From assembly GCA_964411065.1 (NCBI GenBank), contig CAYPJO010000001.1, positions 9,352-69,312 on the forward strand: DNA of 59,961 nt, written 5' to 3'. This document shows positions 16,026 through 59,834 of this stretch, in pieces. A model generated the notes under the pieces. The model worked only from the letters and a program-made list of their open reading frames with translations. It searched no databases and was not told the origin of the DNA. Both the position numbers and the translations under genes were made by a program. Within the stretch, counting starts at the first letter, position 1; the number at the start of each line of letters is the position of its first letter. The DNA is from an uncultured Thermodesulfovibrio sp. (GTDB lineage Bacteria > Nitrospirota > Thermodesulfovibrionia > Thermodesulfovibrionales > Dissulfurispiraceae).

Positions 16026-17372
16026 TTAGTTTAATTGGAAGCCTTTTCTTTTTTTATAAACTGATATAGCACCTTTTACAGTGGTATGGTTAAAGGCGCT
16101 TTTCAATAAATCTATAGTTTTTTCTGAAAGTATCGTATCTTTTTTGATGATAAGGAGTCCCGAGAGACCATAAACGTCTTTTGCTACAATAAACCCTGGC
16201 TCTAAATCATTTATTGATATTTCTGCCTCTATGATATCTTCACTGGAAAAAAGGGAGAACTTTAACTCTTGCGCTGCAGACTCAAGGTAAATAAATAACT
16301 CTGAATCAAACTCCTTATCCAAAGAATGCCATATAATTTTAAAAGCCTCGTCTATGTCTCTATTTCTGCTAAGTCGCTCAAATCTATCAGCTATTGATAG
16401 TATTCTCGAACCAAGCGGTATCTTTCCCCGCTTTAAGTTATCGGGGAAGCCACTGCCATCGAAATTTTCGTGATGGTGTCTAATCAATAGAGCTACATCT
16501 TGCAAATAACTTACAACCTTCACTGCCCTCTGACCTAATATTGGGTGCTTAATATATTGTTTGAATTCATCAGATGATAATTCTTGGGGTTCCTTAAAGA
16601 GTAACATATCAGAGGTGCCTATTTTACCTATATCATGTAAGCTGCCTGCTACTGATATCGTTTCCACCTCTGCTGTAGTTAATGATAGCCTTTTAGCCAT
16701 TTCTACAGCAATAAGCGCAACCCTTTTAGAGTGGTTAAAAAGTGCCTTACCTCTTAAGGTTAATATTTCGTCGAAGAGTTCCATTAATTCTTTTTTGTTA
16801 TTTGTAAGCTTATCTTTTAACGCCTTCAATTCTTTATCTTTTTTTGTTAGGTCTATAGTATGAATCTGAACATAATATTCCAGTTCTTTACTCCAAATTT
16901 CTAACTGTTCCTTTTGTTTTTTTGTCAATTCGTTTAGATATATATTCTCCTTTATTAGTCTATATCTGTTTGCTGCTTCCTTAATAATGTGAACAAGTTC
17001 TCTATCATTCCATGGTTTTGTGATATATCTATACGCCCCAGCCTCATTTATAGCATCCATAGCCGCATTTATATCAGCGTATCCTGTTAAAATAATCCTC
17101 AAAGTATTGGGAGAGAGTTCTTTAGCCCTTAATAAAAATTCTGTCCCTGTCATCTCGGGCATCCGTTGATCAGAGACAATCACAGCGAACTCTTTATCCT
17201 GGATAATTTCAAGACCTTCCTTGCCGGACTTTGCAGTATATACATTAAAATTCTCCTCAAGAAAAAGTCTTCTCAAAGCCCTTAGTATGTTTTCCTCGTC
17301 ATCCACAAAAAGTATATTAAAGCTTGCTTCCATATTTATATTCTCAAAGCCCATTTTATTTGAAATTTTCAA
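16026..17372 (-). CDS. Response regulator with HD-GYP c-di-GMP phosphodiesterase output domain
   Basis: REC domain (ILFVDDEE...SDQRMPEMTG), HD motif SLHDIGKIG and HHENFDGSGFP (GYP with Y replaced by F). The start is ambiguous: TTG 17372 overlaps the upstream stop, and ATG 17354 or 17333 are alternatives. Confidence 0.85.
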   Translation of the reverse strand: MKISNKMGFENINMEASFNILFVDDEENILRALRRLFLEENFNVYTAKSGKEGLEIIQDKEFAVIVSDQRMPEMTGTEFLLRAKELSPNTLRIILTGYADINAAMDAINEAGAYRYITKPWNDRELVHIIKEAANRYRLIKENIYLNELTKKQKEQLEIWSKELEYYVQIHTIDLTKKDKELKALKDKLTNNKKELMELFDEILTLRGKALFNHSKRVALIAVEMAKRLSLTTAEVETISVAGSLHDIGKIGTSDMLLFKEPQELSSDEFKQYIKHPILGQRAVKVVSYLQDVALLIRHHHENFDGSGFPDNLKRGKIPLGSRILSIADRFERLSRNRDIDEAFKIIWHSLDKEFDSELFIYLESAAQELKFSLFSSEDIIEAEISINDLEPGFIVAKDVYGLSGLLIIKKDTILSEKTIDLLKSAFNHTTVKGAISVYKKRKGFQLN

Positions 17373-18163
17373 TCGTAAGGTAAAAAGGTAATTATAATGC
17401 CTTTCTGATTAGAAGTTTCATCGTTGAAAACAGTCCCTATTATTTTTCCACGAGTATTATTTATCACCATTTCTGTAAAGGATGAACAGAGGGTATCTCT
17501 GATTTTTACCACAAAATTACAAATATCCTCAGGTAAAAAGCAATAGATATTCTCTCCTAATTTGCTCCACTCAATACCTGCTAAACTAATCCATGCCTCA
17601 TTACATTGCACCATAACAAAATCGAAATCAACTCCCATAATTCCTATCGGGATAGCATTCAAAATGTTTTGAAAATTTTTGAGTAACCTACTTTTAAACT
17701 CAAGAAGTTCGGATTTCTCCCTCAATAACTCTTGTAAATTTTCATTCTTATGAAGTAACTCTTCTGTTAGTTTGCGGTTTCTCTTTGCTAATAAATATCT
17801 ATCTGTGGCATTAGATAAAGTAGCTTTTACCTCTTCATCATTCCATGGTTTAGGTATAAACTTATATATCCTCCCTTCATTAATCGCTCCAATAATAGCT
17901 GAGATATCAGCATAACCTGATATAATAATTCTTACAGAATCTGGTATTCTTAAATAGGCTTTTCTTAAAAAATCTACACCGTTCATATCAGGCATACGAT
18001 AATCTGAGATAATTATCTGGGGCTCTTCCCTCTGAAGGATCTCAAGTCCTTCTTCTCCTGAAGTTGCTGTTAAAATAGTGTAATTTTCATCCATTAAAAG
18101 CCTTCTAAGAGATTTTAGTACTAGTTCTTCATCATCTACAATCAGGACTTTAATCTCTTCCAT
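17369..18163 (-). CDS. Response regulator, REC plus C-terminal PAS-like domain
   Basis: REC motifs VLIVDDEE and SDYRMPDMNG. The C-terminal part LNAIPIGIMGVDFDFVMVQCNEAW is PAS-like. Confidence 0.8.
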   Translation of the reverse strand: MEEIKVLIVDDEELVLKSLRRLLMDENYTILTATSGEEGLEILQREEPQIIISDYRMPDMNGVDFLRKAYLRIPDSVRIIISGYADISAIIGAINEGRIYKFIPKPWNDEEVKATLSNATDRYLLAKRNRKLTEELLHKNENLQELLREKSELLEFKSRLLKNFQNILNAIPIGIMGVDFDFVMVQCNEAWISLAGIEWSKLGENIYCFLPEDICNFVVKIRDTLCSSFTEMVINNTRGKIIGTVFNDETSNQKGIIITFLPYD

Positions 18164-18367
18164 GTAAAACTTTAATTGATCTAATTTATTACAGGGTTTT
18201 TCAATTGAAAAAATTAGAAATTAAAACACTTCTATAACTTTTGAGTCCCATCAGCCTTAATGCAAGCCAAATTTTTGCGTTAAAAAGAATCTTTCCTCTA
18301 TTGTACTAAATAAAAAAATATACTAATAATTTAAAGGGTAATACTTTTCTTCTCAAAAATACAGGGC

Positions 18368-20035
18368 TTAAGACTCTGATTGAGTTACAGGAATTTTTAC
18401 TGTAAAAGTGGTGCCTTCTCCAACCTTACTTCTAACATCTATATTCCCTCTATGCTTACGGATAATATCATAGGCAATGCTTAGTCCCAGCCCTGTCCCT
18501 TGCCCCACAGGCTTTGTTGTAAAAAAGGGTTCAAATATCCTATTAATCTTATCTTCTGGTATGCCAACGCCATTGTCAGAGATAGATACATAAATTTTAT
18601 CAGCTTCATACCATGTCTTTATGTTAATCTCTCCCTTTTTTTCTATTGCCTGAACAGCATTTAATAATAAATTCATAAAAACTTGATTCAATTGCCCAAG
18701 ATTACAGTACGTCTTTGGTAGTATACCCAACTCTTTTTTTATTGTTGCTTTATACTTGAGTTCATTCCATAAAATATTTATAGTGCTTTCAATACCTTCA
18801 TTGATATCAGCTAATTTGAATTCTGCTTCATCAATCCTTGAAAAACTCTTTAGATCTTGAACAATCAGCTTTATCCGTTCCGCACCCTCTATTGACTCCT
18901 TTACTAAACTCTCCATATCTTCTAACAAATACTCAATTTTTAAAGATTTGCGTTTCCTCTTTAACTCTTCTACAGTCTCCTCTTTTAAAGAAAAACCTTT
19001 ATGAATTGCAGTTATGATATTATCTTGAAAGGAAATGAATTCTTTGATCCTGCTCGAGTATTTAAGAAGGGTGTTGAGATTACTCATTAAAAACCCTGTA
19101 GGATTATTTATCTCATGGGCAATTCCTGATGCAAGTTGTCCAATGGAAGCCATTTTTTCTTGTTGTAATATCTGTGCTTGGGCACTCTTTAACTCAAGGT
19201 AAGCCTTCTCCAGTTCAGAGTGTTTAACCTCAAGCATCTTATTACTATTCTCTAATTTTTTTGTAAGTCTCCTAACATTTGTAATATCTTGTAAGACGAT
19301 AACGGCTGCATTCTTAATGGTCTCATTAAAGTCTTGAAGATAATATATATTGAAGTTGAAATACCTACCCTTTGAATGATGTAACTCTATATCCCCTGAG
19401 TCTAACACAACAAAGTTAAAGAGTCCCTTTTTAAGTACATCTTGAAACTTTTTCCCCAAGATGTGTTGGAAATCTGTCTCCATTAGTTCAACCAATCTTT
19501 TATTAATCCTTAAAATTGTATCTTTCTGATCAATAAGAATTATGATGTCATTTACACAATCAAATATAGATTCCCACTCCCTTTTAGCGTTTTCGATTAA
19601 TTTCATAGTTTGAGAAAGAACTACATTTTGAAGCTCTAATTCTTGGTATTTTTTTAAATTTATAAAGTTACGAGTTTTAATTTTAACTTCTAATGAATTG
19701 AGAGGTTTCAAAAGGAGGTCGTTAGCACCTGCTTCAAGGCATTTCATTTTAAGGTCTTGCTCAATGGATCTTGTTATAATAATTATAGGAATTGAGGATG
19801 TTGTTGGATTATTCTTCAATCTTCTACAAACCTCAAAACCACTTATTTTTAATAAGAATAAATCCAAAAAAACTATATCGGGTTTCATCTCAAAGGCTAA
19901 CTCTATGATCTCGTTACCATCATTTGTTGTATAACAAATATATCCTTCAGTGGAAAGAACCAGATAAAGATAATCTCGTATATACTTATCATTATCTGCT
20001 ATTAAAACTACATGATTTTGTCTAACTTCTTGCAC
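18368..20035 (-). CDS. Hybrid sensor histidine kinase (REC-PAS-HisKA-HATPase_c)
   Basis: N-terminal REC (VLIADND...), H-box IAHEINNPTGF, N-box LLLNAVQA, G-boxes DNGVGI and GTGLGL. Confidence 0.9.
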   Translation of the reverse strand: MQEVRQNHVVLIADNDKYIRDYLYLVLSTEGYICYTTNDGNEIIELAFEMKPDIVFLDLFLLKISGFEVCRRLKNNPTTSSIPIIIITRSIEQDLKMKCLEAGANDLLLKPLNSLEVKIKTRNFINLKKYQELELQNVVLSQTMKLIENAKREWESIFDCVNDIIILIDQKDTILRINKRLVELMETDFQHILGKKFQDVLKKGLFNFVVLDSGDIELHHSKGRYFNFNIYYLQDFNETIKNAAVIVLQDITNVRRLTKKLENSNKMLEVKHSELEKAYLELKSAQAQILQQEKMASIGQLASGIAHEINNPTGFLMSNLNTLLKYSSRIKEFISFQDNIITAIHKGFSLKEETVEELKRKRKSLKIEYLLEDMESLVKESIEGAERIKLIVQDLKSFSRIDEAEFKLADINEGIESTINILWNELKYKATIKKELGILPKTYCNLGQLNQVFMNLLLNAVQAIEKKGEINIKTWYEADKIYVSISDNGVGIPEDKINRIFEPFFTTKPVGQGTGLGLSIAYDIIRKHRGNIDVRSKVGEGTTFTVKIPVTQSES

Positions 20036-24491: not shown

Positions 24492-24815
24492 TTATTTTGT
24501 TGTGTGAGTTGTTTTTGCAACCTCAGATGAGGATACCTCTGCTTTGGTATTTTGCTTATCAGTAGTAGAGACCTTAGAAGGAGTATACTCTTTTCCGTTA
24601 GAACCCCTTTCAGCTTCTAAAGCTTTTTTCCTTTCTGGAGAAGCATAATCGGTGACATACCAACCTGTTCCTTTTAAAATAAAGCTCGTGTTTGATATTA
24701 GCTTTTTAACTTCACCCTTACAAATAGGACAACTTTTAGGGCTTTGATCATTGAATCTTAACATAATCTCAAATTGCTCACCACATTTTAGACATTTGTA
24801 TTCGTATATTGGCAT
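24492..24815 (-). CDS. FmdB-family zinc-ribbon protein
   Basis: [12 protein letters not shown]...CPICKG CxxC pairs typical of the FmdB putative regulatory family. Low-complexity C-terminal tail. Confidence 0.8.
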
Positions 24816-25465: not shown

Positions 25466-26509
25466 ATGACTAGACAAAAAATATATGAAACAATAGTGAA
25501 GAATTTACCAATTGGATTTACCACAGTTGACGAAAATGGTATCACTATCGATTTTAACGAAGCAGCTGAAATGATAACAGGTTACAAAAAAGAAGAGGTG
25601 ATTGGTAAACCCCATAACTTAATTTTCCACCCAAAGACAGGCATTGAAGCCTGCCCTTTATTCAAACACGCCCTCATTGACAAGGAATCCATAATAGCTC
25701 AAGAGAAAAAATTTATAAAAAAAACAGGAGATGTTATCACTCTTTTAGTCAGCGTAGCTCCTCTTTTTGATTCGGAAGGTAAGTTCATTGGTGGTGTGGA
25801 AATATTCAGAGATGTTACACATGTTAAACGCCTTGAGAGAGAAAAAAAGAACATCCTCGCAATGTTTGCCCATGATATAAAAAATTCAATTACGAGTTCT
25901 ATAGGTTTTGCAACAAGAATCCTTGCAGGCAAAGCTTCTAATCCAACTGAAGATTTAAGAGTTATCATTGATGAACTCAAAACCGTAGAATACCTCATCT
26001 CGGAATTTCTAGAATTTTCAAAGTTAGAATCAAAGGAAATTACTCCACAACTAAAGGAGTTTGATTTATATAAAATAATCACAAAGCAGATTGATATGAT
26101 CACTGTTGAGGCTAAGAAAAAGAATTTAACAATTTCCTTTATAACTGATGAAATTCCACCAGTTATGATAATGGCAGATGAAACAATGATTAAAAGAGTC
26201 ATATCAAATCTTCTTGATAACGCCGTTAAATATAACAATGTCGGTGGTAACATAATAGTTAAATTAAAAAAGAACAAAAAAGAGGTGCTTATTCAGATTG
26301 AAGATACAGGAATTGGAATACCTGAGGACAAACTACCCTTCATATTCGATGCTTTTTATCGACTCACTCCTAGCACAAAGGGTTCAGGTCTTGGTTTATC
26401 CATAGCCAAACAGATAATAGAGTTGCATGGAGGAAGAATCTGGGCAAAAAGCACTTATATGGAAGGGTCCACTTTTAGCTTTACGATCCCTCTAATTTTG
26501 AAACAATAG
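25466..26509 (+). CDS. Cytoplasmic PAS-domain sensor histidine kinase (orphan)
   Basis: PAS region (GFTTVDENGITIDFNEAAEMITGY), H-box FAHDIKNSITS, N-box LLDNAVKY, G-boxes DTGIGI and GSGLGL. Confidence 0.9.
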   Translation: MTRQKIYETIVKNLPIGFTTVDENGITIDFNEAAEMITGYKKEEVIGKPHNLIFHPKTGIEACPLFKHALIDKESIIAQEKKFIKKTGDVITLLVSVAPLFDSEGKFIGGVEIFRDVTHVKRLEREKKNILAMFAHDIKNSITSSIGFATRILAGKASNPTEDLRVIIDELKTVEYLISEFLEFSKLESKEITPQLKEFDLYKIITKQIDMITVEAKKKNLTISFITDEIPPVMIMADETMIKRVISNLLDNAVKYNNVGGNIIVKLKKNKKEVLIQIEDTGIGIPEDKLPFIFDAFYRLTPSTKGSGLGLSIAKQIIELHGGRIWAKSTYMEGSTFSFTIPLILKQ

Positions 26510-26847
26510 ATATTTTCTCACTTAATTATCAATTTATAGTTCTATGACAATAAATCTTTCAAAAGACTCTTTCTCGTTAGCCTTTCAATTTTTTCATCAG
26601 ATATTCAATGATTGTTTAGTCCTCAATTGAGCCCCTTCCATTTTCTCTGTCTGGATTATTAAAGGTAAAGCTGAAGCAAAGGGTTTAGCATGCTTCCCTA
26701 TCTTCTGTTAATTTACTAAAAATCCCTTCGATTGGTGAGCTAATTCTACAAGATCTTCTTTCACAATATGGTCTTTGCTATTTTTATTTATGTAATCTAT
26801 AATAACTGCAAGGGTTTAAGATATTTAAGATTCTATTCATCTTAAAG

Positions 26848-27909
26848 TTAAGATAAAAGTTGTTTTAATTCTTTTGATGTATAAATACCCTCTACTTTGG
26901 TGAAAGTATAGCCTAGTTGCTTACATTTCTGACACCCTGAGGTATTACAAGAGTCACACTTCTTTGGGGCATACAGATTAATGTAGTAATCTGAGAAATC
27001 CTTAGGCGCCGAATCAGTAGTGTAAATAGCTCGATCATAATTAAGATTCGAAAACTTTAAAGAAAAGTAGGGATACCCATAAAGTAGCTTATCACTGTAA
27101 ATCAAATTCTCATGTTCAGAACATGGCATATCAATAAGAATGGTCTTCGTGGGTAATACTAAACCGTTTAATCCCAAAATGGCTGGATATCTGATATCTT
27201 CAATAATATTAATTAAAGGATAAATCGAAAATAATATAGTCTTAAAATTGTCGTGTATTTCATAGGCATAAGGAATTTCAAGCATACCTAATGCCCCAAA
27301 AACTTCTTCTTTTTTAAAGGTGGTATCAATTTCTGCAATATTTCTCAGTACCCCGTTCCCATACACATTTATCACACTTTTGTGGTGCTGGATGGCGATA
27401 TCAACTCTGTAAAAGCCTGTCTCCTTTATCAAATCCAAGGTTTTTTGTAATACAGAAATAATTGTAGGAGATGCATCTTCTTTAAAAAAGTTTATCAAAG
27501 TATTCTCAATTTTTTTAGCCTCACCAATAGAGATGTTAACCTTTTTACCCAATACATTTTCAATGAAAGCAAAAGCGTTATAGTTAAATATATCGTCTGT
27601 TACGATACATATCTCATCCTCTGTCTCAAATAAGGGTATGACTCTATTCTCTATAAGGAATTTTTTAGTGAATTTTTGTACTAAGTTTTTATCTATATTG
27701 ACATGATCAACTACTACAAAGGGTACATCATACTGCTTACTAAGAATCCATTGTATATTTGCTTCGTCTACTTTTCCAATCTTTACCAATGTCTCTCCTA
27801 ATTTAAGACCCATCAATTTTTGTAATTTAAGTCCCTCCACTAAGTCACTCTCTGTTATAAAACCATAACGTATCAGTAATGAACCAATTTTTTCTCTCTC
27901 TTTACTCAC
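26848..27909 (-). CDS. MshEN (T2SS-E N-terminal) domain protein. GspE/PilB-like but without a Walker A ATPase core.
   Basis: Residues 7-30 (KIGSLLIRYGFITESDLVEGLKLQ) and 36-59 (KLGETLVKIGKVDEANIQWILSKQ) fit the tandem MshEN motif. The C-terminus CDSCNTSGCQKCKQLGY..EGIY resembles the GspE zinc knuckle. There is no GxxxxGK[ST] anywhere. GTG start with GGAG 8 nt upstream. Confidence 0.7.
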   Translation of the reverse strand: MSKEREKIGSLLIRYGFITESDLVEGLKLQKLMGLKLGETLVKIGKVDEANIQWILSKQYDVPFVVVDHVNIDKNLVQKFTKKFLIENRVIPLFETEDEICIVTDDIFNYNAFAFIENVLGKKVNISIGEAKKIENTLINFFKEDASPTIISVLQKTLDLIKETGFYRVDIAIQHHKSVINVYGNGVLRNIAEIDTTFKKEEVFGALGMLEIPYAYEIHDNFKTILFSIYPLINIIEDIRYPAILGLNGLVLPTKTILIDMPCSEHENLIYSDKLLYGYPYFSLKFSNLNYDRAIYTTDSAPKDFSDYYINLYAPKKCDSCNTSGCQKCKQLGYTFTKVEGIYTSKELKQLLS

Positions 27910-27963
27910 AAAATGCTCCTAGCTTATCGGTTAAGATTTAGAGATTATTTTAGTCAATATCTC

Positions 27964-28404
27964 TCACTTTATCTCTTTTATCTTCATAAGAGTATCGAGA
28001 TAAATCTCCTTCTTATTAGGGTTTAGCTCTAAGGCTTTTTTTGCTAAATACTCTGCTTCCTCTAATTTTTGCTTTTTTAGATAGTATATCCATGCAAGGT
28101 TATTATAGGCATCGGAGTTTTCAGGTTTTTCTCTAATAGATTTTTTGTAGTATTTTTCAGCCATATAGAGATCATTTTTAAGAAAATAGGCATTCCCAAG
28201 ATATAAAAAGGCATCAGGACTCTTTTTAGCTGCCTTGTTATATTGTTTTATAGCTTCGTCTAATAACCCTTTATTTTCATAAGCCAAACCGAGAGCGATA
28301 TGCTCATGGGGCGTAAGAGGGTCATCAAGTACGATAATTCGGGGCATAGAACAGCCCCCTAAGATAAGAGTTAGCAGGAAAATAATGAGAATATGTTTTT
28401 TCAT
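27964..28404 (-). CDS. TPR-repeat lipoprotein
   Basis: Lipobox LILGGC, followed by 3 TPR-like repeats (ALGLAYENKGLLDEAIKQYNKA etc.). Confidence 0.75.
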   Translation of the reverse strand: MKKHILIIFLLTLILGGCSMPRIIVLDDPLTPHEHIALGLAYENKGLLDEAIKQYNKAAKKSPDAFLYLGNAYFLKNDLYMAEKYYKKSIREKPENSDAYNNLAWIYYLKKQKLEEAEYLAKKALELNPNKKEIYLDTLMKIKEIK

Positions 28405-28422
28405 ATAAGCATAATTAATAAA

Positions 28423-28986
28423 TCATTCTTTTTTAATCAATAAAGTCCAATAATTGGTCTTTTGCCATATCTTGGTAAAATCTTCAGTCTCTATGAATTT
28501 CCTTTGGGAATTATCAGAGTTAAAAAAAATTCCGTAATCATTATATCCTACTACAACTACATAATGATAATGTTTATAAAAAGAAAAACCATAGTCAACT
28601 AAAACAATAAGCGGATAACCACTCTCTATATGGAATTTTAAATCACTGAGGCTGCCTGAATAGTGAATCCCTTTAAGTCCCTTCTTCTGTGCATAAAGAA
28701 CCATGTCGAGGTTAAGGGTTCCTTTAGCAGATTTACTAAATATTTCTGTAGCTACTTCCTCTGGTGAAGTAAAAATGCCGTGATAGCTCAAAACAGCTGC
28801 TAACGATGCAGGACCGCACTGAAATTCCCTTTGAGGATAGAAAGGTACATTCTCAATAATTTTAAGATTTCTTCCTTGCTTAATCTGGTGTTGAACGCAA
28901 GAAGTGAAAAATAAAAACAAAATTAAGAAAATGAACAGTTTGAAAAGATTTCTACTATACCTAAATTTTTTCATATTTTTATTCAC
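28423..28986 (-). CDS. Papain-like cysteine peptidase lipoprotein (Peptidase C39-like)
   Basis: Lipobox FFTSC. Catalytic-Cys context FQCGPASLAAVL and downstream HYVVVVGY His. Similar architecture to the C39-like/TPR (PA2778-type) proteins. Confidence 0.72.
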   Translation of the reverse strand: MNKNMKKFRYSRNLFKLFIFLILFLFFTSCVQHQIKQGRNLKIIENVPFYPQREFQCGPASLAAVLSYHGIFTSPEEVATEIFSKSAKGTLNLDMVLYAQKKGLKGIHYSGSLSDLKFHIESGYPLIVLVDYGFSFYKHYHYVVVVGYNDYGIFFNSDNSQRKFIETEDFTKIWQKTNYWTLLIKKE

Positions 28987-47959: not shown

Positions 47960-48436
47960 TTATTCCCCACTCGCTTTTGCACTAGTAAGAGCAATTACAT
48001 CGAACTTTACTATAAGCTCTCGCGGTTCTCTATAGTTACGAACCCTTGCATCAATTTCTTTAATTACGAGATGAGGGGTTCGAGTCTCTATCTCATAAAT
48101 AACCTCTGTTAAAGCTCTTATATCAGGTATTACCGTATCAATGCTAACACTTATCATTTTATAGTTGCCTAAGTCCTCAGCTTTGCCTACCCTCTCACTT
48201 GAGATTGTCCCACCCCTACTTATTATTATACCTTTAACCATCTCTTGGAGTGAGGCAGCTGCTAAGGACAGAGTCTGACCCTCGATAAGTTTATTTTCTT
48301 CAAGCTTTTTAGTATCCTTAAGAGTAGCTATCAATTTCTCGAGTTCAGGTTTTTCTGCTATGAGCTGATTATATTTTTGAAGAGTCTTTGTTTTTAAGCT
48401 AATAGATTCCTGAGTAGCCAGGTACTTATCTTCCAA
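47960..48436 (-). CDS. GspM/PilO-like assembly protein (periplasmic part). The N-terminal TM segment lies upstream, behind an in-frame TAA.
   Basis: Coiled-coil plus ferredoxin-like C-terminal pattern. Last gene of the pseudopilin operon. See the finding on 48437-48523. Confidence 0.6.
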   Translation of the reverse strand: MEDKYLATQESISLKTKTLQKYNQLIAEKPELEKLIATLKDTKKLEENKLIEGQTLSLAAASLQEMVKGIIISRGGTISSERVGKAEDLGNYKMISVSIDTVIPDIRALTEVIYEIETRTPHLVIKEIDARVRNYREPRELIVKFDVIALTSAKASGE

Positions 48437-48549
48437 ACGAAGATAACCATGTTCGTATACTGCTAATGAGATAAGAATGATAATTATTGGAATAGATAAC
48501 TTAAAAAACTTTTTTTTTTCATCAACTTAAAATTAATCTATTATAGATA

Positions 48550-50070
48550 TTATTCTTCTTTTGTCTTACTTCCTTCGACACTCTCTATTTCCATCTTTAT
48601 GCTGAATCTATCAGCATTCATTCTTGCATCTCTAAATGTAGGAGATGCAAATTCAACATTTTTGAAAAAATTAGAGGCTTCCAGTTTTGGCAATATTTCC
48701 GTTGCAGAACCTGCATAGCCCTCTATTTCAACTACTTTTTCGGTTACTCTAAGCCTAGTTAACCATGCATTTTTTGGAATGATTGATGTGAATTCCTTTA
48801 TTATCATAAGAGTCATTTGCCTGTTACTCTTAAAGCCATTTATTGTCGCTATATCTTTGTTCAAATTTTCGATCTCCCTTTTCAGAGCCTCAACTCTTTT
48901 AACTTCATCTTTTTTTAATGATAATTGTTTATCAATCTCTTCGATTTTTTTATTTTCAAAGTAGAGTGGTGCTGAAAAATTTATCATTACTATGGATAAA
49001 AGAATTACCAATAATATTATAGTAAGGAAAATAGGTTTTTTCTGCTCGGGTATTTTACCCTTTGAGAGAAGATTAAAATTGTCAGTTTGATGTAGTAGTG
49101 AATCTATTGCGCAGCCAATTGATGAATAGGAAATTAGATCACTCTTAAAGCTATATTTTACTCTCCTTACAACCTCATCTAAGAAAATTACAGGCATGTT
49201 TAATATAGATTTGAAATTCTCTTTAAAGTTTTGATTATTTTCTTTAAAGTTAACATAAATTGATGGTTTCAAATCATCTTTATTACTGATAGCAATGATC
49301 CTTTTAATACCCCCAGACAATTCGGTGAAACGATTCTCGTCATCATCATGTTTGAATTTATGAGCAAAAAAGGCAATAGGTTTCGTTCGTAAAAAGAGTA
49401 CACCTTCATAACCTGTTTTATCTATTTCTACATAGAGGCTTGATAATGGTTTACAAGCATAATTTATAAAGCTTCCAGTTGCGGATAAGTTGAGTGTAAT
49501 TTTATGTACTTCTATACCTTTAGTAGCAAGCGCATCTATGTATGGCTTTAGAAGTTGAATTTTTGTTACAGCTAACAAAATTTTAATCTTTTCATCGGTC
49601 TCATCAATGATTTTGAAATCATAAAAAACGTCGTCTACCTCAAAGGGGGTAAGCCTGTCCATTTCATAGGAGACAACATTCTGTAAGTCCTCTTTAACAG
49701 AAGAGGGAAATTCTAATATTTTTGTTATTGCCCATGCCTTTGGGATACTCAAGGCTACTGATGAAAACTTTAGATTTTGTTCTTTTATAGTAAGTGCTAC
49801 TGTGGAAGCAAAAGATTCCAAATCTGTAGAGGAAGAATCAAAGGGATATTTTTTGGACCACAAAATCTTAAAATGGGAGAAGATTTTCATCACGCAACTA
49901 ATAATAAAATTATCTACTTCAAAAGATATGCTTAGACTCTTCTGAGGTAGAAGAAAATCTGAAAAGTCATACCACAGAGCTTTCCAAAATGGTGTTAAGA
50001 AACGTTTTATAGATGCAAATCTATCCAAACTTTGAGACGATAATTTCTTTAATGCTTCTGAACCTGTCAT
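48550..50070 (-). CDS. GspL-like protein (PilM-like cytoplasmic domain - TM - PilN-like periplasmic domain)
   Basis: Single central TM (PIFLTIILLVILLSIVMINF) followed by a PilN-type coiled coil and ferredoxin-like domain. Overlaps the gspK-like stop. Confidence 0.7.
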   Translation of the reverse strand: MTGSEALKKLSSQSLDRFASIKRFLTPFWKALWYDFSDFLLPQKSLSISFEVDNFIISCVMKIFSHFKILWSKKYPFDSSSTDLESFASTVALTIKEQNLKFSSVALSIPKAWAITKILEFPSSVKEDLQNVVSYEMDRLTPFEVDDVFYDFKIIDETDEKIKILLAVTKIQLLKPYIDALATKGIEVHKITLNLSATGSFINYACKPLSSLYVEIDKTGYEGVLFLRTKPIAFFAHKFKHDDDENRFTELSGGIKRIIAISNKDDLKPSIYVNFKENNQNFKENFKSILNMPVIFLDEVVRRVKYSFKSDLISYSSIGCAIDSLLHQTDNFNLLSKGKIPEQKKPIFLTIILLVILLSIVMINFSAPLYFENKKIEEIDKQLSLKKDEVKRVEALKREIENLNKDIATINGFKSNRQMTLMIIKEFTSIIPKNAWLTRLRVTEKVVEIEGYAGSATEILPKLEASNFFKNVEFASPTFRDARMNADRFSIKMEIESVEGSKTKEE

Positions 50071-51011
50071 GATTGCAAACGAGCAGGACTTTTATAATAA
50101 ATATAACGGTACTTGATGCTACCTTCTAACTGTACAACAGCAACAATAGTATAAGCTGATCTTTCCTTATTCTTAAAAGCTGAGGACTTAATAGTATAAG
50201 TAGGGGTATTAGGTATTTGGGAAATGAATCTGGAGCTCTCTTTGGGTAAATTTATACTCAATTTTTCTAAGGTAGTTAAGTCTGCCCTCTTACTAATTAT
50301 TTCGTCAACAATTTCTGGCGTCAGACCAGGGACTGCCAGTAGAATTTCCTTGGGAGCAGTTCTCAAGTTTATGGTACTGATATCGGAATAAATCGTTATG
50401 AAGTCCATTATACCTTTTTTCTCGCTATTTCCGTATAGAATTTCCTGGTTCATACCTTTTATTAATAAGAGCTCTTCTAAAGTATCGAATTTTGCGTTTT
50501 TTGCTTTATAGGGTGTTGGCAAACTCATGTAATAATCGCTCTCAGCTCCATTAAGTCTTCTTAGATCGTCGCTATCTTTCCAGTCCAAAATGGAGTCAAC
50601 AATTACTGATGCCGTTTCATCAGCTATCCCAAAATTAAGTAAAAGATTTTTTAATATTATAGCAGATAGGTCATTCAGATTGTTTATATTAATCTTTCCT
50701 GATTCATCCATGAGTCTTATAACAACTTGTCCATTAGGTAGTGATAGTGTATAAGGTGTTCCATCAACTCGCCAGACTTTTTTATTTTCTTCAAAAAACT
50801 TCTGTCCTCCGTGCTGATTCCTATAAAACAACTCAATAATCCCTCTTTCGATTCCAGCTTCAGCCAAATACTTTTTATTTACCTCCTCTCTAAAAGCTAT
50901 TGTAGCGTGCGTTTCCGTTCGTACTAATAAAGAAAAAGATATAGCAATAGCCATTAATATGGTTAAAACCCATAAAATAATGATTAAAATTATGCCCTTT
51001 TCATTTCTCAC
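50067..51011 (-). CDS. GspK-like minor pseudopilin
   Basis: N-terminus EKGIILIIILWVLTILMAIAISF. The size (314 aa) and an HhH-like region (TLEELLLIKGM) are typical of T2SS protein K. Confidence 0.78.
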   Translation of the reverse strand: MRNEKGIILIIILWVLTILMAIAISFSLLVRTETHATIAFREEVNKKYLAEAGIERGIIELFYRNQHGGQKFFEENKKVWRVDGTPYTLSLPNGQVVIRLMDESGKININNLNDLSAIILKNLLLNFGIADETASVIVDSILDWKDSDDLRRLNGAESDYYMSLPTPYKAKNAKFDTLEELLLIKGMNQEILYGNSEKKGIMDFITIYSDISTINLRTAPKEILLAVPGLTPEIVDEIISKRADLTTLEKLSINLPKESSRFISQIPNTPTYTIKSSAFKNKERSAYTIVAVVQLEGSIKYRYIYYKSPARLQS

Positions 51012-51032
51012 TTTTTTAAAAATTTATCTGCC

Positions 51033-51716
51033 TTATTTCCGATCACTTTTTTGTGGTCTAACCTCTTTTGATAACCCTGTACCATTGATATCTTGAGATA
51101 GAGGTATTCCAAAAGAAGATAGTGGTTTATTTCTGATAGAGATTATAAAATTCATGTTTATCTTTTTAGCTTCATCAAAAAAGTTTATAGCTACCTTTTC
51201 AGGTATTGAAGAGCTATCTGACCACTCATCGATCCATTGGCCTTCTTCTTCAGCAAGATCTTTATTGAAGTAGAGGAAAGATATGCCCTGTAGCCCATTT
51301 ATTAAGAGGGTTTTTCTTGGTTTATCAACCATGATTGTATTCTCTGTAACATAGAGAGCTTTTTTTGCCTTTAAGTCTTCCTCAATATTGTACTGAACCT
51401 TTACAAAGCCTCTATGCCCCTGCCAAACCGAAAAGTTTGAAGCAAATTGAAGAGAATCCTTTTGCCCAATAAAATATAGTCTTTGTTCTCCCTCCTTTTC
51501 ATAGGTCAAAGGTATTTGTGATTGGAGTTGGGCATCTATTATTTGTATAGTAGTTCTCAACCTTTCAAGAAATTCGATCTTCTTTTCAGCTTTTTCTATT
51601 GAACGGTGTCCAAGTCTCATGGCTCCGAACAGAATAAGCAAAATAATAGACAATAGAGTTATAGAGACCATCAACTCTAAAAAAGTGAAGCCTTTTTGAG
51701 ATGCTTTCGAGATCAT
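51033..51716 (-). CDS. GspJ-like minor pseudopilin (prepilin-type N-terminal methylation motif)
   Basis: QKGFTFLELMVSITLLSIILL prepilin motif. 227 aa. Confidence 0.65.
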   Translation of the reverse strand: MISKASQKGFTFLELMVSITLLSIILLILFGAMRLGHRSIEKAEKKIEFLERLRTTIQIIDAQLQSQIPLTYEKEGEQRLYFIGQKDSLQFASNFSVWQGHRGFVKVQYNIEEDLKAKKALYVTENTIMVDKPRKTLLINGLQGISFLYFNKDLAEEEGQWIDEWSDSSSIPEKVAINFFDEAKKINMNFIISIRNKPLSSFGIPLSQDINGTGLSKEVRPQKSDRK

Positions 51717-52102
51717 TGCAATATTTTAGCCACCGTTTTATAAGATTTAATAGTATAAGATTTATTACTTAATCTATCGGTCCAGCTTATAGTTAGATTA
51801 ACCTCCAACAAGCTAAATTGTAGGTTCTCTGTCCTATCTTTTAGTATTTCTACTACAGAAATATCTAATCTATGACCCCTGTTGGTGGTTTCTTGCCATG
51901 CGTCTTCTAATAGATCTTCACTTTGAAGTAGCTCTCTCATTTTCATTTCCGCTTGGATGAGTGCATGCACATAATCTTCTGACCTGGAGATGGCTCTTAA
52001 ATTAATCGAAAATAATTGTAAAATTACAGTAATTGCAATGCTTAATATGGAGAGAGCAACAACGATCTCAAGCAGAGTATATCCCTTGTTCACAAGCTTC
52101 AT
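51713..52102 (-). CDS. GspI-like minor pseudopilin
   Basis: NKGYTLLEIVVALSILSIA prepilin motif. 129 aa. Confidence 0.7.
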   Translation of the reverse strand: MKLVNKGYTLLEIVVALSILSIAITVILQLFSINLRAISRSEDYVHALIQAEMKMRELLQSEDLLEDAWQETTNRGHRLDISVVEILKDRTENLQFSLLEVNLTISWTDRLSNKSYTIKSYKTVAKILQ

Positions 52103-52614
52103 TTTATTGTAATTGTCCCTACTATAGGGTCAAGATGTATAGTTGCAACTCTTTTACTATCAAACAAAAGTATCGTACCACCCTCCACTCCTCCCGTAGC
52201 AGGAATCATAATCTGATATCTACCCCTTGAGATTTCAATCCCTAAGGAGTTAAAAACTCTTATATTTATATTAGCTGGGAAATCCTTTGATGTAAGACCT
52301 TCAATCCCATATTTCTTTGATTCAAAATCAATATAAAAAGCTTGATCTTCTCCTCTAAGTTTTGCAGTTGTTATAGTATATTTGATGGTAGCTGAGATTT
52401 CTCTAACTAAAGCATTGAATTTACTTGAAGGGAGGGTATTTGCAAAGAATACAGTAGATATGCCTAAAATCAGTAAAATTAAAACCAGTACAATTATTAA
52501 TTCTATTAGCATAAAACCTTTTTGATTAATTTTAGAAAAGTAAAAAGGACCTGCTAATAAAACGACAGAAGGACTCAATCTATTAATTCTATGAATAAAA
52601 GAGGAAAAGACCAT
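52099..52614 (-). CDS. GspH/FimT-like minor pseudopilin
   Basis: QKGFMLIELIIVLVLILL prepilin motif. Start placed at ATG 52614, just after the gspF stop. The longest ORF would overlap gspF by 47 nt. Confidence 0.6.
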   Translation of the reverse strand: MVFSSFIHRINRLSPSVVLLAGPFYFSKINQKGFMLIELIIVLVLILLILGISTVFFANTLPSSKFNALVREISATIKYTITTAKLRGEDQAFYIDFESKKYGIEGLTSKDFPANINIRVFNSLGIEISRGRYQIMIPATGGVEGGTILLFDSKRVATIHLDPIVGTITIK

Positions 52615-52618
52615 AATA

Positions 52619-53812
52619 TTAAAAGGGTATTTCTGTAATACTAAGGATTGCCATAAGCATTGCAATAACTATAAATCCTATTATTAGACCCATAAAGAGT
52701 ATCAAAAAGGGTTCAAGAAGACTAATAAATCTTTTTATGGTGAGTCTCAGGCTCTTTTCGTAAGTAATAGCTACTTTTATTAGCATATCGTCGAGTTGCC
52801 CCGTCTCCTCTCCAACTTTTACCATCGAAAGGGCAAGGTCTGGAAACATCTTTGTCCTTTGTAAAGGTATAAATACTCCCTGTCCTTCTTTAGCTCCCCT
52901 ATAGACCATGTCTACCTTCGACGCTATCAATTGGTTATTTATTACTTTCTTAGAATTATTAATAGCTTGTAAAAGTGGCACTCCGCTCTTAAGAAGTGTT
53001 CCCAATGTCCTACAAAACCTCACGGTTTCAAGTTTTATGATTATATCCTTGAACAATCTTAATTTTAAAGAATCCCATTTATATCTACCTGAAGGCTTTC
53101 TTATGTATAACTTTAAAAGGAAAAAACCAGATAAAATCAAACCACCTATTAACCACCAGAAGGACTTAAGGAAATCACTCACAGAGAGCAAAATTTCTGT
53201 AGGAAGGGGTAGAGCACTACCCATTTCTGAAAAAATAACAGAGAATTTAGGCAATACATATGTGAGTAAGATGATTATGGATATACTACCAGTAAATAGA
53301 AGAATAGTTGGATAAATCATTGCAGAAAAAACATGATCTTTAAGTTCCTGGGATGATTCAAGATATTCATTAAGTTTATCTAATACAACATTCAGAACTC
53401 CACCTGCTTCAGCTGCTTTTATCATGTTTACATAAATTCTTGGGAATATATCAGGATGTTTTTGTAGAGCCTCTGAAAAGGAATTACCCTCCCTTATAGA
53501 CTTTAAAATAGATTGGATTATTTTTTTCATATACCTATCCTCTGATATCTCAGAGAGGATATTAAGACTGCGATCAAGGGGTAGTCCTGCAGAAAGAAGA
53601 GAAGAGAGTTCAGAGGTAAAAACGATCAAATTACCCTTTTTTGACCTTAAGGATAAACCCTTTTTAACTTCTTCTTTTGAGATAGAAACCTTTAAGGGAA
53701 TATAGCCGGAGTTTCTAATCTTTTCAATAGCACTCTTTTCATCAGAAGCCTCTATGATACCTTCTACTATTGAACCCTGAAAAGAGGTGGCTTTATAAGA
53801 AAATATTGCCAT
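52619..53812 (-). CDS. gspF: Type II secretion / type IV pilus platform protein (GspF family)
   Basis: Two T2SS-F repeats, GEETGQLDDML motif, three TM segments. 397 aa. Confidence 0.9.
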   Translation of the reverse strand: MAIFSYKATSFQGSIVEGIIEASDEKSAIEKIRNSGYIPLKVSISKEEVKKGLSLRSKKGNLIVFTSELSSLLSAGLPLDRSLNILSEISEDRYMKKIIQSILKSIREGNSFSEALQKHPDIFPRIYVNMIKAAEAGGVLNVVLDKLNEYLESSQELKDHVFSAMIYPTILLFTGSISIIILLTYVLPKFSVIFSEMGSALPLPTEILLSVSDFLKSFWWLIGGLILSGFFLLKLYIRKPSGRYKWDSLKLRLFKDIIIKLETVRFCRTLGTLLKSGVPLLQAINNSKKVINNQLIASKVDMVYRGAKEGQGVFIPLQRTKMFPDLALSMVKVGEETGQLDDMLIKVAITYEKSLRLTIKRFISLLEPFLILFMGLIIGFIVIAMLMAILSITEIPF

Positions 53813-58619: not shown

Positions 58620-59834
58620 TCACATTCCTGTGATAACGCCACCCAGTTTGAAGATCGGTAAGTATAAAGAAATTACAATAAAACCAATTGTCACACCTAA
58701 AAATATTATCAAAGCTGGTTCGAGCATGGTTGTAAGATTTGTTATCGCCTGATCTACTTCATCATCATAAAAATCTGCGATTTTAGTTAACATTTGCTCA
58801 AGGGAGCCAGTAGTTTCTCCTACTTTGATCATTTGTACGATCATTGGACTAAATATTTTAGAATTTTCCATGATTTCTGAAATAGTCCTACCTTTTGTTA
58901 ACTCTGCTTTAATGTCTAAAACTTCTTTTTCTACTACTTTATTTCCCGATGACTTAGCACATATCTCGAGTGCTTCTAAAAGAGGAACGCCACTACCAAT
59001 AAGAGTTCCTAATGTCCTTGTGAAACGAGCAACTGAAACCTTTTTAACAAGTTCACCAAATAATGGTAAGTCCAATAAGAATTTATCTGTAACCTTTTTT
59101 CCATTTTCTGTCTTTCTATATTGTCCTATGCTTATAAAGGCTATAATAAATGAGATTAAAATTATTAAACCACCAATACCACTAATAAAATTACTGAAAC
59201 CAATTACAATTCGCGTGGGAAGGGGAAGAGTGACACCCATCTCGTTAAATATTTTGGCAAAAATAGGTATCACAAAAATCATAATTATCGCTACTACAAG
59301 TACAGCAACACTCACAATTATTCCCGGATAAATCATTGAACCTTTGACCTTCTTTTTGAGTTTAATCATTTTCTCCATGTGATTTGCCAGACGGATCAGA
59401 ACTGTATCGAGAACTCCCCCTGTTTCACCAGCTGCGACAAGATTAACATATAAACTATCGAAAACTGATGGATATCTTTTTAAAGATTCTGCGACGGTTG
59501 AGCCTGTCTCAATAGAATCCTTCAATTTATTGATAATTTTTTGAAAAGATTTATTCTCAATCTGTTTAGCTATTATCGAGAGTCCTTGTACAATTGGGAT
59601 TCCTGCAGAAAAAAGAGTTGCAAATTGGCGAGTAAAAACGACTATCTCTTTTTCGGTTATCTTCTTTTTCTTTATATGTTCTATTGAGTCCTTTTTCTTT
59701 TCAACAATTGATGTAGGTATGATGCCTCGTCTCCTTAAATCAAAGACGACTTCATCTTTGCTGGATGCGGTTATTTCACCACTTTGTATGGTTCCGGACA
59801 TTGATTTGCCAGTCCATTTAAAGGTTATAGCCAT
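58620..59834 (-). CDS. pilC: Type IV pilus assembly platform protein PilC (GspF family)
   Basis: Two T2SS-F repeats, GETTGSLEQML motif. 404 aa. AAGGAA RBS. Confidence 0.88.
   Translation of the reverse strand: MAITFKWTGKSMSGTIQSGEITASSKDEVVFDLRRRGIIPTSIVEKKKDSIEHIKKKKITEKEIVVFTRQFATLFSAGIPIVQGLSIIAKQIENKSFQKIINKLKDSIETGSTVAESLKRYPSVFDSLYVNLVAAGETGGVLDTVLIRLANHMEKMIKLKKKVKGSMIYPGIIVSVAVLVVAIIMIFVIPIFAKIFNEMGVTLPLPTRIVIGFSNFISGIGGLIILISFIIAFISIGQYRKTENGKKVTDKFLLDLPLFGELVKKVSVARFTRTLGTLIGSGVPLLEALEICAKSSGNKVVEKEVLDIKAELTKGRTISEIMENSKIFSPMIVQMIKVGETTGSLEQMLTKIADFYDDEVDQAITNLTTMLEPALIIFLGVTIGFIVISLYLPIFKLGGVITGM

What the first reader, a model, noticed from the sequence alone, without database searches (positions are those of the whole stretch)
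26848..27909. GspE/PilB-like protein that keeps the c-di-GMP-binding MshEN motifs but lacks the ATPase core
Residues 7-30 and 36-59 fit the published tandem 24-residue MshEN motif RLGxx(L/V/I)(L/V/I)xxG(L/V/I)(L/V/I)xxxxLxxxLxxQ position for position. The one difference is Lys in place of the first Arg in both copies. The C-terminus (KKCDSCNTSGCQKCKQLGYTFTKVEGIY) resembles the GC..C...GY.GR.GIYE zinc-knuckle end of GspE/PilB, but compressed to CxxCx4CxxC. The intervening stretch of about 200 aa contains no Walker A (GxxxxGK[ST]) that I can find, and the protein is only 353 aa, against about 500-570 for real secretion ATPases. This looks like a pseudo-ATPase or stand-alone c-di-GMP receptor derived from a secretion ATPase. 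The same window holds a T2SS-type module with no ATPase gene and a REC-HD-GYP phosphodiesterase.
Basis: partly seen in the sequence, partly recalled or inferred. Interest (0 to 1): 0.68.

Follow-up and report, generated by a model that had tools for sequence, protein, structure and literature searches.

The report
ATPase-less c-di-GMP sensor, orphaned from PilT
This gene encodes a likely c-di-GMP-sensing protein built like the front half of a pilus-assembly motor with no engine; relatives always sit beside a PilT pilus-retraction motor gene, but here that partner has decayed to a 270-bp relic.

Summary
Window 26848-27909 (-) is an intact 353-aa ORF with a good Shine-Dalgarno site. It has a bona fide MshEN domain (NCBIfam c-di-GMP motif model above cutoff; Foldseek top hit MshE-N bound to c-di-GMP). 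It has no Walker A and no T2SSE hit. Four Cys are invariant (CxxCx4CxxC).

New findings:
- Residues about 150-235 fold like the N2 domain of PilB/GspE-type ATPases. The layout is therefore N1-N2-[core missing]-Cys4.
- The family is tiny: 15 clusters among 1.84 billion representatives, from Nitrospirota/Thermodesulfovibrionales and Deferribacter. It is annotated only as hypothetical.
- In every complete related locus (10 distinct), the gene is followed, usually with overlapping stop and start, by a PilT/PilU-family ATPase.
- In this window that partner survives only as a relic (26549-26815). Its first 140 codons (including Walker A) and codons 192-303 are gone, and it carries stops and a frameshift.

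"Pseudo-ATPase derived from a secretion ATPase" is supported. "Stand-alone" and the link to the T2SS module are not.

Most likely it is a trans-acting, c-di-GMP-gated adaptor or regulator of a PilT motor, orphaned here. It is a new variant of a known kind. c-di-GMP binding and PilT interaction are untested.

The parts
26848..27909 (-). Intact ORF, 353 aa. It encodes an MshEN-N2-like-Cys4 protein with no ATPase core. It belongs to a small unnamed family.
27916..27920 (-). Shine-Dalgarno AGGAG, 6 nt upstream of the GTG start
27475..27909 (-). MshEN (GSPII / N1) domain, residues 1-145
   Evidence: Pfam and NCBIfam hits. hhalign to a PilB profile gives prob 98.7% over residues 6-145. Foldseek top hit is 5htl, MshE-N with c-di-GMP, E 4.8e-8.
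27820..27891 (-). c-di-GMP motif I, residues 7-30: KIGSLLIRYGFITESDLVEGLKLQ
   Evidence: It matches the relaxed Wang-2016 pattern.
27733..27804 (-). c-di-GMP motif II, residues 36-59: KLGETLVKIGKVDEANIQWILSKQ. It follows the 5-residue spacer KLMGL.
   Evidence: It deviates from the relaxed pattern only at position 11 (K46).
27205..27462 (-). N2-like domain, residues about 150-235, with the order alpha-beta-beta-beta-alpha-beta-beta. It carries the family motif TSFYR(I/V)D(I/F) (TGFYRVDI in this protein).
   Evidence: AF2 models give pLDDT of about 75-88 here. Foldseek on the C-terminal model puts PilB, PilF, GspE, EpsE and BfpD cores at ranks 1-17. R168 and D170 are invariant in the wide family.
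27007..27204 (-). Conserved but unmodelled segment, residues 236-301. It contains the motifs YPAILGxxGL and GYPY and sits where the RecA-like ATPase core would be.
   Evidence: pLDDT below 50. G249, G278 and Y279 are conserved across the wide family.
26881..26988 (-). C-terminal beta-hairpin, residues 308-343. It carries the invariant C318-x2-C321-x4-C326-x2-C329 cluster plus LGY, and is a putative zinc ribbon.
26549..26815 (-). Relic of the partner PilT/PilU-family ATPase gene. It covers codons 141-191 and then joins directly to codons 304-351. It has an in-frame stop, further stops and a frameshift. Codons 1-140 (including Walker A) and 192-303 are deleted.
   Evidence: tblastn of intact partners gives E 3e-14 and 63% identity over 51 aa, with a second segment at E 0.02. 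Against the L005 partner the values are 2e-19 and 7e-7. DNA identity to L005 pilT is 75%.
27964..28404 (-). TPR lipoprotein (lipobox LGGC) just upstream. It is syntenic with the target in all Thermodesulfovibrionales loci.
28423..28986 (-). C39-like cysteine peptidase (PA2778-family N-terminal half). It is the first gene of the conserved cluster.
25466..26509 (+). Convergent PAS-HisKA-HATPase histidine kinase. In most Thermodesulfovibrionales loci it is syntenic on the far side of the PilT gene.

Best explanation
The gene encodes a soluble, ATPase-less descendant of a PilB/MshE-type type IV pilus motor.

Anatomy (shown):
- It keeps the N1 (MshEN) domain with both c-di-GMP motifs, an N2-like domain and a C-terminal Cys4 hairpin.
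- The roughly 230-residue RecA-like core is replaced by a conserved segment of about 65 residues.
- Across the family the gene is adjacent to, and often overlaps, a PilT/PilU-family ATPase gene.

Function (inferred): I infer the two genes are co-transcribed and often translationally coupled. I infer the protein is a trans-acting c-di-GMP sensor for that PilT motor. MshEN would bind c-di-GMP. The N2-like domain and the conserved 236-301 segment would dock on the PilT hexamer; in these ATPases the N2 domain of one protomer normally packs on the CTD of its neighbour. Docking would gate or localise retraction at the pilus platform.

State in this genome: the PilT partner has been destroyed by deletions, so this copy is an orphan. 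It remains intact and evolves no faster than its sister. Either the loss is recent, or the protein also acts on another motor or platform.
For: Shown here:
- MshEN membership.
- No Walker A and no T2SSE hit.
- An N2-like fold: Foldseek ranks 1-17 are all T2SSE ATPase cores, probability 0.98-1.0, 104-121 aligned columns. Core-only chains that lack MshEN are also hit by the full model.
- Cys4 is invariant in the 16 close homologues and present, with one spacing variant, in the remote full-length members.
- An exhaustive profile search with the C-terminal 208 aa finds only 15 representatives. All have the same architecture.
- A PilT-family gene lies immediately downstream in L001/8, L003/10, L004/19, L005/6, L009, L012, L013/14, L015 (Deferribacter desulfuricans DEFDS_0626 locus), L016 and L017.
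- The partner scores 468 and 474 bits on TIGR01420 pilT_fam, cutoff 319.
- The relic in the window.
- A relative-rate check: target identities of window and sister to outgroups are 56.1 vs 56.7 and 50.1 vs 50.4.

From the literature:
- K at motif position 1 is compatible with nanomolar c-di-GMP binding (PMC11731258).
- The N2D of one protomer rests on the CTD of its neighbour, and N1D probably contacts the platform (PMC11656802).

c-di-GMP enzymes lie near family members: an EAL gene convergent in L012, and REC-HD-GYP 10 kb away here.
Against: - No binding or interaction data exist.
- Motif II has Lys at hydrophobic position 11, in the window protein and in nearly all members aligned. Remote members have N, S or T at position 1 of motif I, and most fail even the relaxed motif regex.
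- The N2 similarity is at fold level only. Foldseek E values are 0.01-0.1. hhalign to PilB and PilT profiles finds nothing beyond residue 145. A PDB profile search with the C-terminal alignment gives 0 hits.
- The AF2 models rest on 16 sequences. Mean pLDDT is 64-68, and residues 236-301 are unmodelled.
- Gene adjacency does not prove physical interaction.
- In this genome the proposed partner is dead, so the mechanism cannot operate here as stated.
- The window protein has 6 private substitutions at otherwise invariant columns, against 1 in its sister.
Confidence: 0.55

Rival explanations
1. First reader's version. The protein is a stand-alone c-di-GMP receptor or pseudo-ATPase. It services the ATPase-less T2SS-like module in the same window, for example by binding the GspL-like PilM/N fusion through its N1 domain.
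For: - The window has a GspF/pseudopilin/GspK/PilM-N/GspM cluster and no intact T2SSE gene.
- GspE N1 domains bind GspL (PDB 4pht appears among the fold hits).
- With PilT gone, some other partner would explain why the ORF is retained.
Against: - The module is 20 kb away and shares no synteny with the family.
- In the related loci the conserved neighbour is PilT. No T2SS gene lies in the fetched flanks (about 1-6 kb) of the loci whose genes were listed.
- The rest of the genome may well encode GspE or PilB. Only 60 kb is visible.
Confidence: 0.1
2. The module is dying in this genome. After pilT was lost, the target is a functionless leftover that has not yet picked up a disabling mutation.
For: - The partner is reduced to a relic with three kinds of lesion.
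- The window protein has 6 private changes at otherwise invariant positions, including P275L next to the GYPY motif. Its sister has 1.
Against: - The full-length ORF has a Shine-Dalgarno site.
- All Cys residues and motif cores are intact.
- Upstream C39 and TPR genes are intact.
- There is no rate acceleration relative to the sister lineage that keeps PilT.
Confidence: 0.2
3. The MshEN domain here does not sense c-di-GMP. As in Xanthomonas XpsE, it serves only as a protein-protein interaction module. The protein is then a structural adaptor of PilT with no nucleotide input.
For: - Degenerate MshEN/GSPII domains that do not bind c-di-GMP exist: XpsE-N and PilF GSPII-A (fold hits 2d27/2d28).
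- Motif II position 11 is Lys throughout the family.
- Remote members deviate further from the motifs.
Against: - The NCBIfam c-di-GMP motif model scores above its trusted cutoff.
- Gly at positions 3 and 10 of both motifs is kept in this protein, as are the L/I at positions 17 and 21 and the terminal Gln.
- The 5-residue spacer is exact.
- Lys at position 1 is proven compatible with binding.
Confidence: 0.2

Closest known systems
MshE / PilB / PilF-type type IV pilus extension ATPases carrying an N-terminal MshEN (GSPII) domain (V. cholerae MshE, PDB 5HTL; T. thermophilus PilF GSPII-B, PDB 8PDK)
   Same: - The N1 MshEN domain has two 24-residue motifs and a 5-residue spacer.
- It is followed by an N2-like alpha/beta domain, in the same N1-N2 order.
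- A Cys4 cluster sits near the C-terminus.
- Lys at motif position 1, as in the high-affinity PilF GSPII-B.
   Different: - No RecA-like CTD, no Walker A or B, and no PF00437 hit.
- 353 aa against about 560-600 aa.
- Cys4 is compressed to CxxCx4CxxC. The canonical gap of about 29 residues is stated from memory and was not measured here.
- The C-terminal 200 aa are unrecognisable at sequence-profile level.
- It is encoded next to a PilT retraction-type ATPase rather than being a motor itself.
Non-ATPase MshEN proteins, e.g. E. coli NfrB (c-di-GMP-activated glycosyltransferase)
   Same: MshEN is used as a c-di-GMP input module attached to something other than a secretion ATPase. The NfrB model NF008411 matches residues 4-158 at 51.7 bits.
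   Different: The output here is not an enzyme domain. It is an N2-like plus Cys4 module, and the output is presumably delivered in trans to PilT.
FimX-PilZ-PilB complex of Xanthomonas and Pseudomonas (trans-acting c-di-GMP control of a pilus motor)
   Same: A separate c-di-GMP receptor protein that would regulate a type IV pilus ATPase by binding to it.
   Different: The sensor domains differ (degenerate EAL and PilZ against MshEN). The known target is the extension motor PilB. Here the genetically linked motor is PilT-family.
PilT/PilU family ATPases (TIGR01420); this applies to the relic only
   Same: The relic at 26549-26815 aligns with residues 141-191 and 304-351 of intact PilT-family partners.
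   Different: It lacks Walker A, the Asp and His boxes and the N-terminal domain, and it is interrupted by stops and a frameshift. It is a pseudogene fragment.

Membership tests
MshEN / GSPII c-di-GMP-binding domain (PF05157, NF053729) | Profile match above the curated cutoff | tested here: met
   PF05157 scores 37.3 bits against 23.1. NF053729 scores 45.3 bits against 38.
MshEN / GSPII c-di-GMP-binding domain (PF05157, NF053729) | Two tandem 24-residue motifs (R/K/L)LGxx(L/V/I)2xxG(L/V/I)2x4Lx3LxxQ, separated by 5 residues | tested here: met
   Layout and spacer are exact (7-30, 31-35, 36-59). Conservative deviations are I8, F17 and I52, plus one non-conservative one, K46. Motif I fits the relaxed published pattern, and motif II misses it at one position (patterns).
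MshEN / GSPII c-di-GMP-binding domain (PF05157, NF053729) | Four-helix N-subdomain plus alpha/beta C-subdomain fold | tested here: met
   The AF2 model gives pLDDT 82-89 over most of residues 11-50 and 71-120. The Foldseek top hit is 5htl (MshE-N with c-di-GMP), E 4.8e-8, TM(target) 0.63.
MshEN / GSPII c-di-GMP-binding domain (PF05157, NF053729) | Measured c-di-GMP binding | not testable with these tools
   Needs ITC, DRaCALA or MST.
T2SSE / PilT-like secretion ATPases (PF00437) | Profile match to the ATPase domain | tested here: not met
   No PF00437 hit at E<=10. hhalign against PilB and PilT profiles aligns nothing after residue 145. A PDB profile search gives 0 hits.
T2SSE / PilT-like secretion ATPases (PF00437) | Walker A P-loop GxxxxGK[ST] | tested here: not met
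   Absent from all 27 family sequences scanned, also with a loosened pattern.
T2SSE / PilT-like secretion ATPases (PF00437) | N2 (PAS-like) domain preceding the core | tested here: met
   At fold level only. Foldseek on the C-terminal model puts T2SSE ATPase cores at ranks 1-17 (probability 0.98-1.0, E 0.012-0.1).
T2SSE / PilT-like secretion ATPases (PF00437) | Tetracysteine zinc motif of extension and secretion ATPases | tested here: inconclusive
   Four invariant Cys are present, but as CxxCx4CxxC. hhalign gives a local match to the PilB GCPxCNxTG at E 0.011 over 16 columns, with ambiguous register.
PilT/PilU family (TIGR01420); the downstream relic | Full-length match including Walker A/B and the AIRNLIRE region | tested here: not met
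   Only residues 141-191 and 304-351 remain, with stops and a frameshift. Intact orthologous partners score 468-474 bits.

The most novel reading that the evidence does not exclude
The family is a natural 'engine-less PilB'. It would be a c-di-GMP-loaded N1-N2-Zn scaffold that co-assembles with, or caps, a PilT hexamer. It would either switch PilT between retraction and extension or tether it to the platform. That would give PilT-type motors a direct second-messenger input, which has not been described. The orphan in this window would then show that the scaffold has a PilT-independent role as well.
Probability: 0.2. Interest if true: 0.8.

Novelty: new variant of a known kind. Interest (0 to 1): 0.55.

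Why it matters
c-di-GMP control of type IV pili is known to act through the extension motors (the MshEN domains of MshE and PilB) or through FimX/PilZ adaptors. In my literature searches I found no dedicated c-di-GMP receptor for the PilT retraction motor.

This family is conserved and unannotated. Its members look like a PilB stripped of its ATPase core and sit next to a PilT gene, often with overlapping stop and start. That makes a concrete, testable candidate for such a receptor. It is also a clear natural example of a secretion-ATPase pseudoenzyme.

The window adds an evolutionary snapshot: the motor gene has decayed while the sensor is retained. It also carries an annotation lesson, because the 'intergenic' 338 bp is a pseudogene.

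Tried and rejected
- hhalign of the full family against a PilB profile aligned only residues 6-145.
- Permissive hhalign of the C-terminal alignment against PilB gave only a 16-column Cys-motif match at E 0.011. Against the PilT partners it gave nothing.
- A PDB HMM search with the C-terminal profile gave 0 hits at E<=10.
- Pfam hits in the C-terminal half (DUF4883, Poly_A_pol_cat, BsuBI_PstI_RE) are all below their cutoffs, and I dismissed them as noise.
- I tried to find the window's own protein, or closer relatives, in other assemblies to date the pilT loss. The exact look-up found no record. A metagenome scan with the single protein found nothing. A scan with the alignment found only relatives at 51-53% identity. 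The genome scan found 6 loci, the closest at 69% identity. The age of the deletion is therefore unknown.
- The relic's DNA identity to L005 pilT is 75%. The neighbouring intact genes give 76%, so this comparison does not date the decay either.
- A broad-family alignment (A4) was too divergent for the locus finder.
- I rejected a functional link to the upstream TPR gene across the whole family. In Thermodesulfovibrionales the TPR protein is a lipoprotein. In Deferribacter and in L013 it is a 335-346 aa protein without a signal peptide.
- The promoter and terminator scan gave nothing above shuffle expectation.

Full report
**1. The observation**

The ORF at 26848-27909 on the minus strand is real. 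It is 353 aa with a GTG start. An AGGAG Shine-Dalgarno sequence lies 6 nt upstream, and the start coincides with that of all homologues.

The N-terminal 145 residues are a bona fide MshEN/GSPII domain.
- Pfam PF05157 matches residues 60-145 at 37.3 bits against a cutoff of 23.1.
- NCBIfam's dedicated 53-residue 'c-di-GMP_motif' model NF053729 matches residues 7-59 at 45.3 bits against a cutoff of 38.
- PDB sequence hits are the N-termini of PilF, PilB and MshE only.
- hhalign to a PilB profile gives 98.7% probability over residues 6-145 and nothing further.

The two 24-residue motifs sit at 7-30 and 36-59 and are separated by exactly five residues. Besides K7 and K36 there are I8, F17, K46 and I52. 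Motif I fits the relaxed pattern that Wang et al. used for genome surveys, and motif II misses it at one position (pattern quoted).

The Lys at position 1 is not a defect. For T. thermophilus PilF GSPII-B the natural Lys stacks on the guanine. The domain binds with a Kd of 6 nM, and the authors extended the consensus to (R/K/L) (PMC11731258).

No Walker A exists in this protein or in any of 27 relatives. PF00437 is not hit even at E<=10. The cluster C318-x2-C321-x4-C326-x2-C329, followed by LGY, is invariant among 16 close homologues.

**2. What the rest of the protein is**

Two AlphaFold2 models were made, one full-length and one of the C-terminal 208 aa. Both rest on only 16 sequences and reach a mean pLDDT of 64-68.

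They agree on a confident alpha-beta-beta-beta-alpha-beta-beta unit at residues about 150-235. Residues 236-301 are not modelled. A beta-hairpin at 308-343 carries the four Cys and is followed by a short helix.

Foldseek with the full model hits MshE-N bound to c-di-GMP first (5htl, E 4.8e-8). It also hits ATPase-core chains that lack any MshEN domain: 5oiu, 5it5, 5zfr, 1p9r and 8dzg.

Foldseek with the C-terminal model alone gives PilB, PilF, GspE, EpsE or BfpD cores at ranks 1-17. These hits align 104-121 columns at probability 0.98-1.0 and E 0.012-0.1. I read this as an N2-domain-like fold in the position N2 occupies in real motors, directly after N1.

At sequence-profile level the relationship is invisible. 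The claim therefore rests on fold and domain order. The similarity of the Cys cluster to the PilB/GspE zinc motif remains inconclusive.

**3. The family**

The word-indexed search found 16 full-length homologues at 50-100% identity and 352-359 aa. Where a source gives a name (two of the 16), they are 'hypothetical protein' of Thermodesulfovibrionales MAGs.

An exhaustive HMMER search with the C-terminal profile against 1.84 billion representatives found only 15 proteins. All carry the domain at about 146-350, behind an MshEN domain. None is an ATPase.

One member is DEFDS_0626 of Deferribacter desulfuricans SSM1, annotated 'hypothetical' or 'GspE N-terminal domain-containing protein'. The family therefore spans at least two phyla. 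Across the wide family R168, D170, P231, G278 and Y279 are invariant, and most full-length members keep Cys4. I found no paper describing this architecture.

**4. The decisive context**

In Thermodesulfovibrionales the gene order is:
- C39-like peptidase
- TPR lipoprotein
- MshEN protein
- PilT-like ATPase of 352-357 aa
- a convergent PAS histidine kinase (in most loci)

In these loci the ATPase start overlaps the stop codon of the MshEN gene or lies about 10 nt after it.

Remote members at 30-35% identity keep the MshEN-protein/PilT pair while the other neighbours change.
- L012 has a convergent EAL gene.
- L013/14 and the Deferribacter locus L015 have a cytoplasmic TPR protein upstream and an NFACT gene downstream.
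- L016 and L017 also keep the pair.

The partner is a genuine PilT/PilU-family ATPase. It scores 468-474 bits on TIGR01420 against a cutoff of 319. It has an intact Walker A and a PilT-type AxANLIREGK motif. Partners are 67-86% identical across these loci, whereas the MshEN proteins are only 30-69% identical to the window protein.

In the window the order is C39, TPR, target, a 338-bp gap and then the kinase. tblastn of the intact partners onto the window shows that the gap is a relic of pilT.
- Positions 26815-26666 encode residues 141-191 at 63-65% identity, E 3e-14 to 2e-19, with an in-frame stop.
- This joins directly to 26668-26549, which encodes residues 304-351 with further stops and a frameshift.
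- Codons 1-140 (N-terminal domain and Walker A) and 192-303 are gone.

No other T2SSE-family gene is detectable in the 60 kb.

**5. State of the orphan**

The target keeps every family-invariant residue. It has six private substitutions at columns where the other 15 close homologues agree, against one in its sister.

A relative-rate comparison shows no acceleration. Window and sister are equally distant from two outgroups, at 56.1 vs 56.7% and 50.1 vs 50.4% identity. Either the pilT loss is recent or the protein is still useful. I could not date the loss, because no closer relatives were found and DNA identities are uninformative.

**6. Mechanism**

Shown: an MshEN domain with near-consensus motifs, an N2-like domain, no ATPase core, and obligate genetic linkage to PilT across the family.

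Established knowledge:
- MshEN binds c-di-GMP through these motifs (PMC5013675, PMC11731258).
- In PilB-type hexamers the N2D of one protomer rests on the CTD of the neighbour, and N1D probably contacts the platform (PMC11656802).
- PilT can contribute to extension as well as retraction in the MSHA system (PMC9815625).

Inference: the protein is a trans-acting, c-di-GMP-gated adaptor or regulator of the PilT motor. It would dock through its N2-like/236-301 region and couple PilT to the platform, or brake it. I cannot say whether it activates or inhibits PilT.

Here the partner is dead, so the copy is an orphan. The T2SS-like module 20 kb away has no conserved association with the family, and I give that link low weight.

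**7. Comparison and novelty**

The protein is a member of the MshEN domain family; its defining features are met except for the untestable binding. It is not a member of the T2SSE ATPase family, because the profile match and Walker A were tested and not met. It most plausibly descends from that family.

Functionally the nearest analogues are cis-acting MshEN domains of MshE, PilB and PilF, and trans-acting FimX/PilZ. A PilT-linked, engine-less PilB-like sensor has not been described in the literature I could search. I rate it a new variant of a known kind, with interest of about 0.55.

**8. Verdict**

- The finding gains a new element in the pilT relic, which redefines the gene as the orphaned half of a conserved two-gene module.

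Noticed in passing
window 27964-28986 (-): The C39-like peptidase ORF matches positions 2-144 of the NCBIfam model for PA2778-family cysteine peptidases. The adjacent TPR lipoprotein ORF matches positions 165-255 of the same model. The two genes together look like a split version of a single PA2778-type protein. The TPR protein also gives sub-threshold hits to the pilus-associated TPR lipoproteins PilW and Tgl.
   Followed up: partly
window 47960-53812 (-): A T2SS-like cluster: a GspM-like gene, a 506-aa PilM/PilN fusion (GspL-like), GspK, a GspJ-like gene, a second small N-terminal-methylation-motif pseudopilin gene, an ORF with no Pfam hit, and GspF. It has no ATPase, secretin or major pseudopilin gene. 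It is flanked by a nitroreductase gene and a phosphorylase-like gene.
   Followed up: partly
window 58620-59834 (-): A second T2SSF-family gene scores best on a type IV pilus PilC model, though below that model's cutoff. The 127 nt upstream, up to the window end, has stops in all frames, so no ATPase gene abuts it.
   Followed up: partly
window 16026-20035 (-): A signalling gene run: a REC-HisKA-HATPase hybrid kinase, a REC-PAS protein and a REC-HD-GYP-type phosphodiesterase. The signature of the last reads HHHENFDGSGFP, with GFP instead of GYP.
   Followed up: partly
L012 2358-3713 (-): In a remote family member's locus, an EAL-domain protein is encoded convergently right after the MshEN-protein/PilT pair. 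This is a second hint of a c-di-GMP context.
   Followed up: no
P0036, P0037 (family members; L015 6001-7080): The Deferribacter-type members have C-x-C instead of C-x2-C for the first Cys pair. Three representatives of about 300 aa (P0035, P0038, P0042) end before the Cys4 hairpin. They may be truncated contigs or a shorter variant.
   Followed up: no
L013 8154-9755, L015 8128-9702: In the Deferribacter-type loci the PilT partner is followed directly by an NFACT (FbpA-like) gene, and a 335-346 aa cytoplasmic TPR protein overlaps the start of the MshEN gene. This neighbourhood differs from the Thermodesulfovibrionales one.
   Followed up: no
window 24492-24815 (-): A small 107-aa Zn_ribbon_8 (FmdB-type) protein is encoded in the otherwise gene-poor stretch between argininosuccinate lyase and the PAS kinase.
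   Followed up: no
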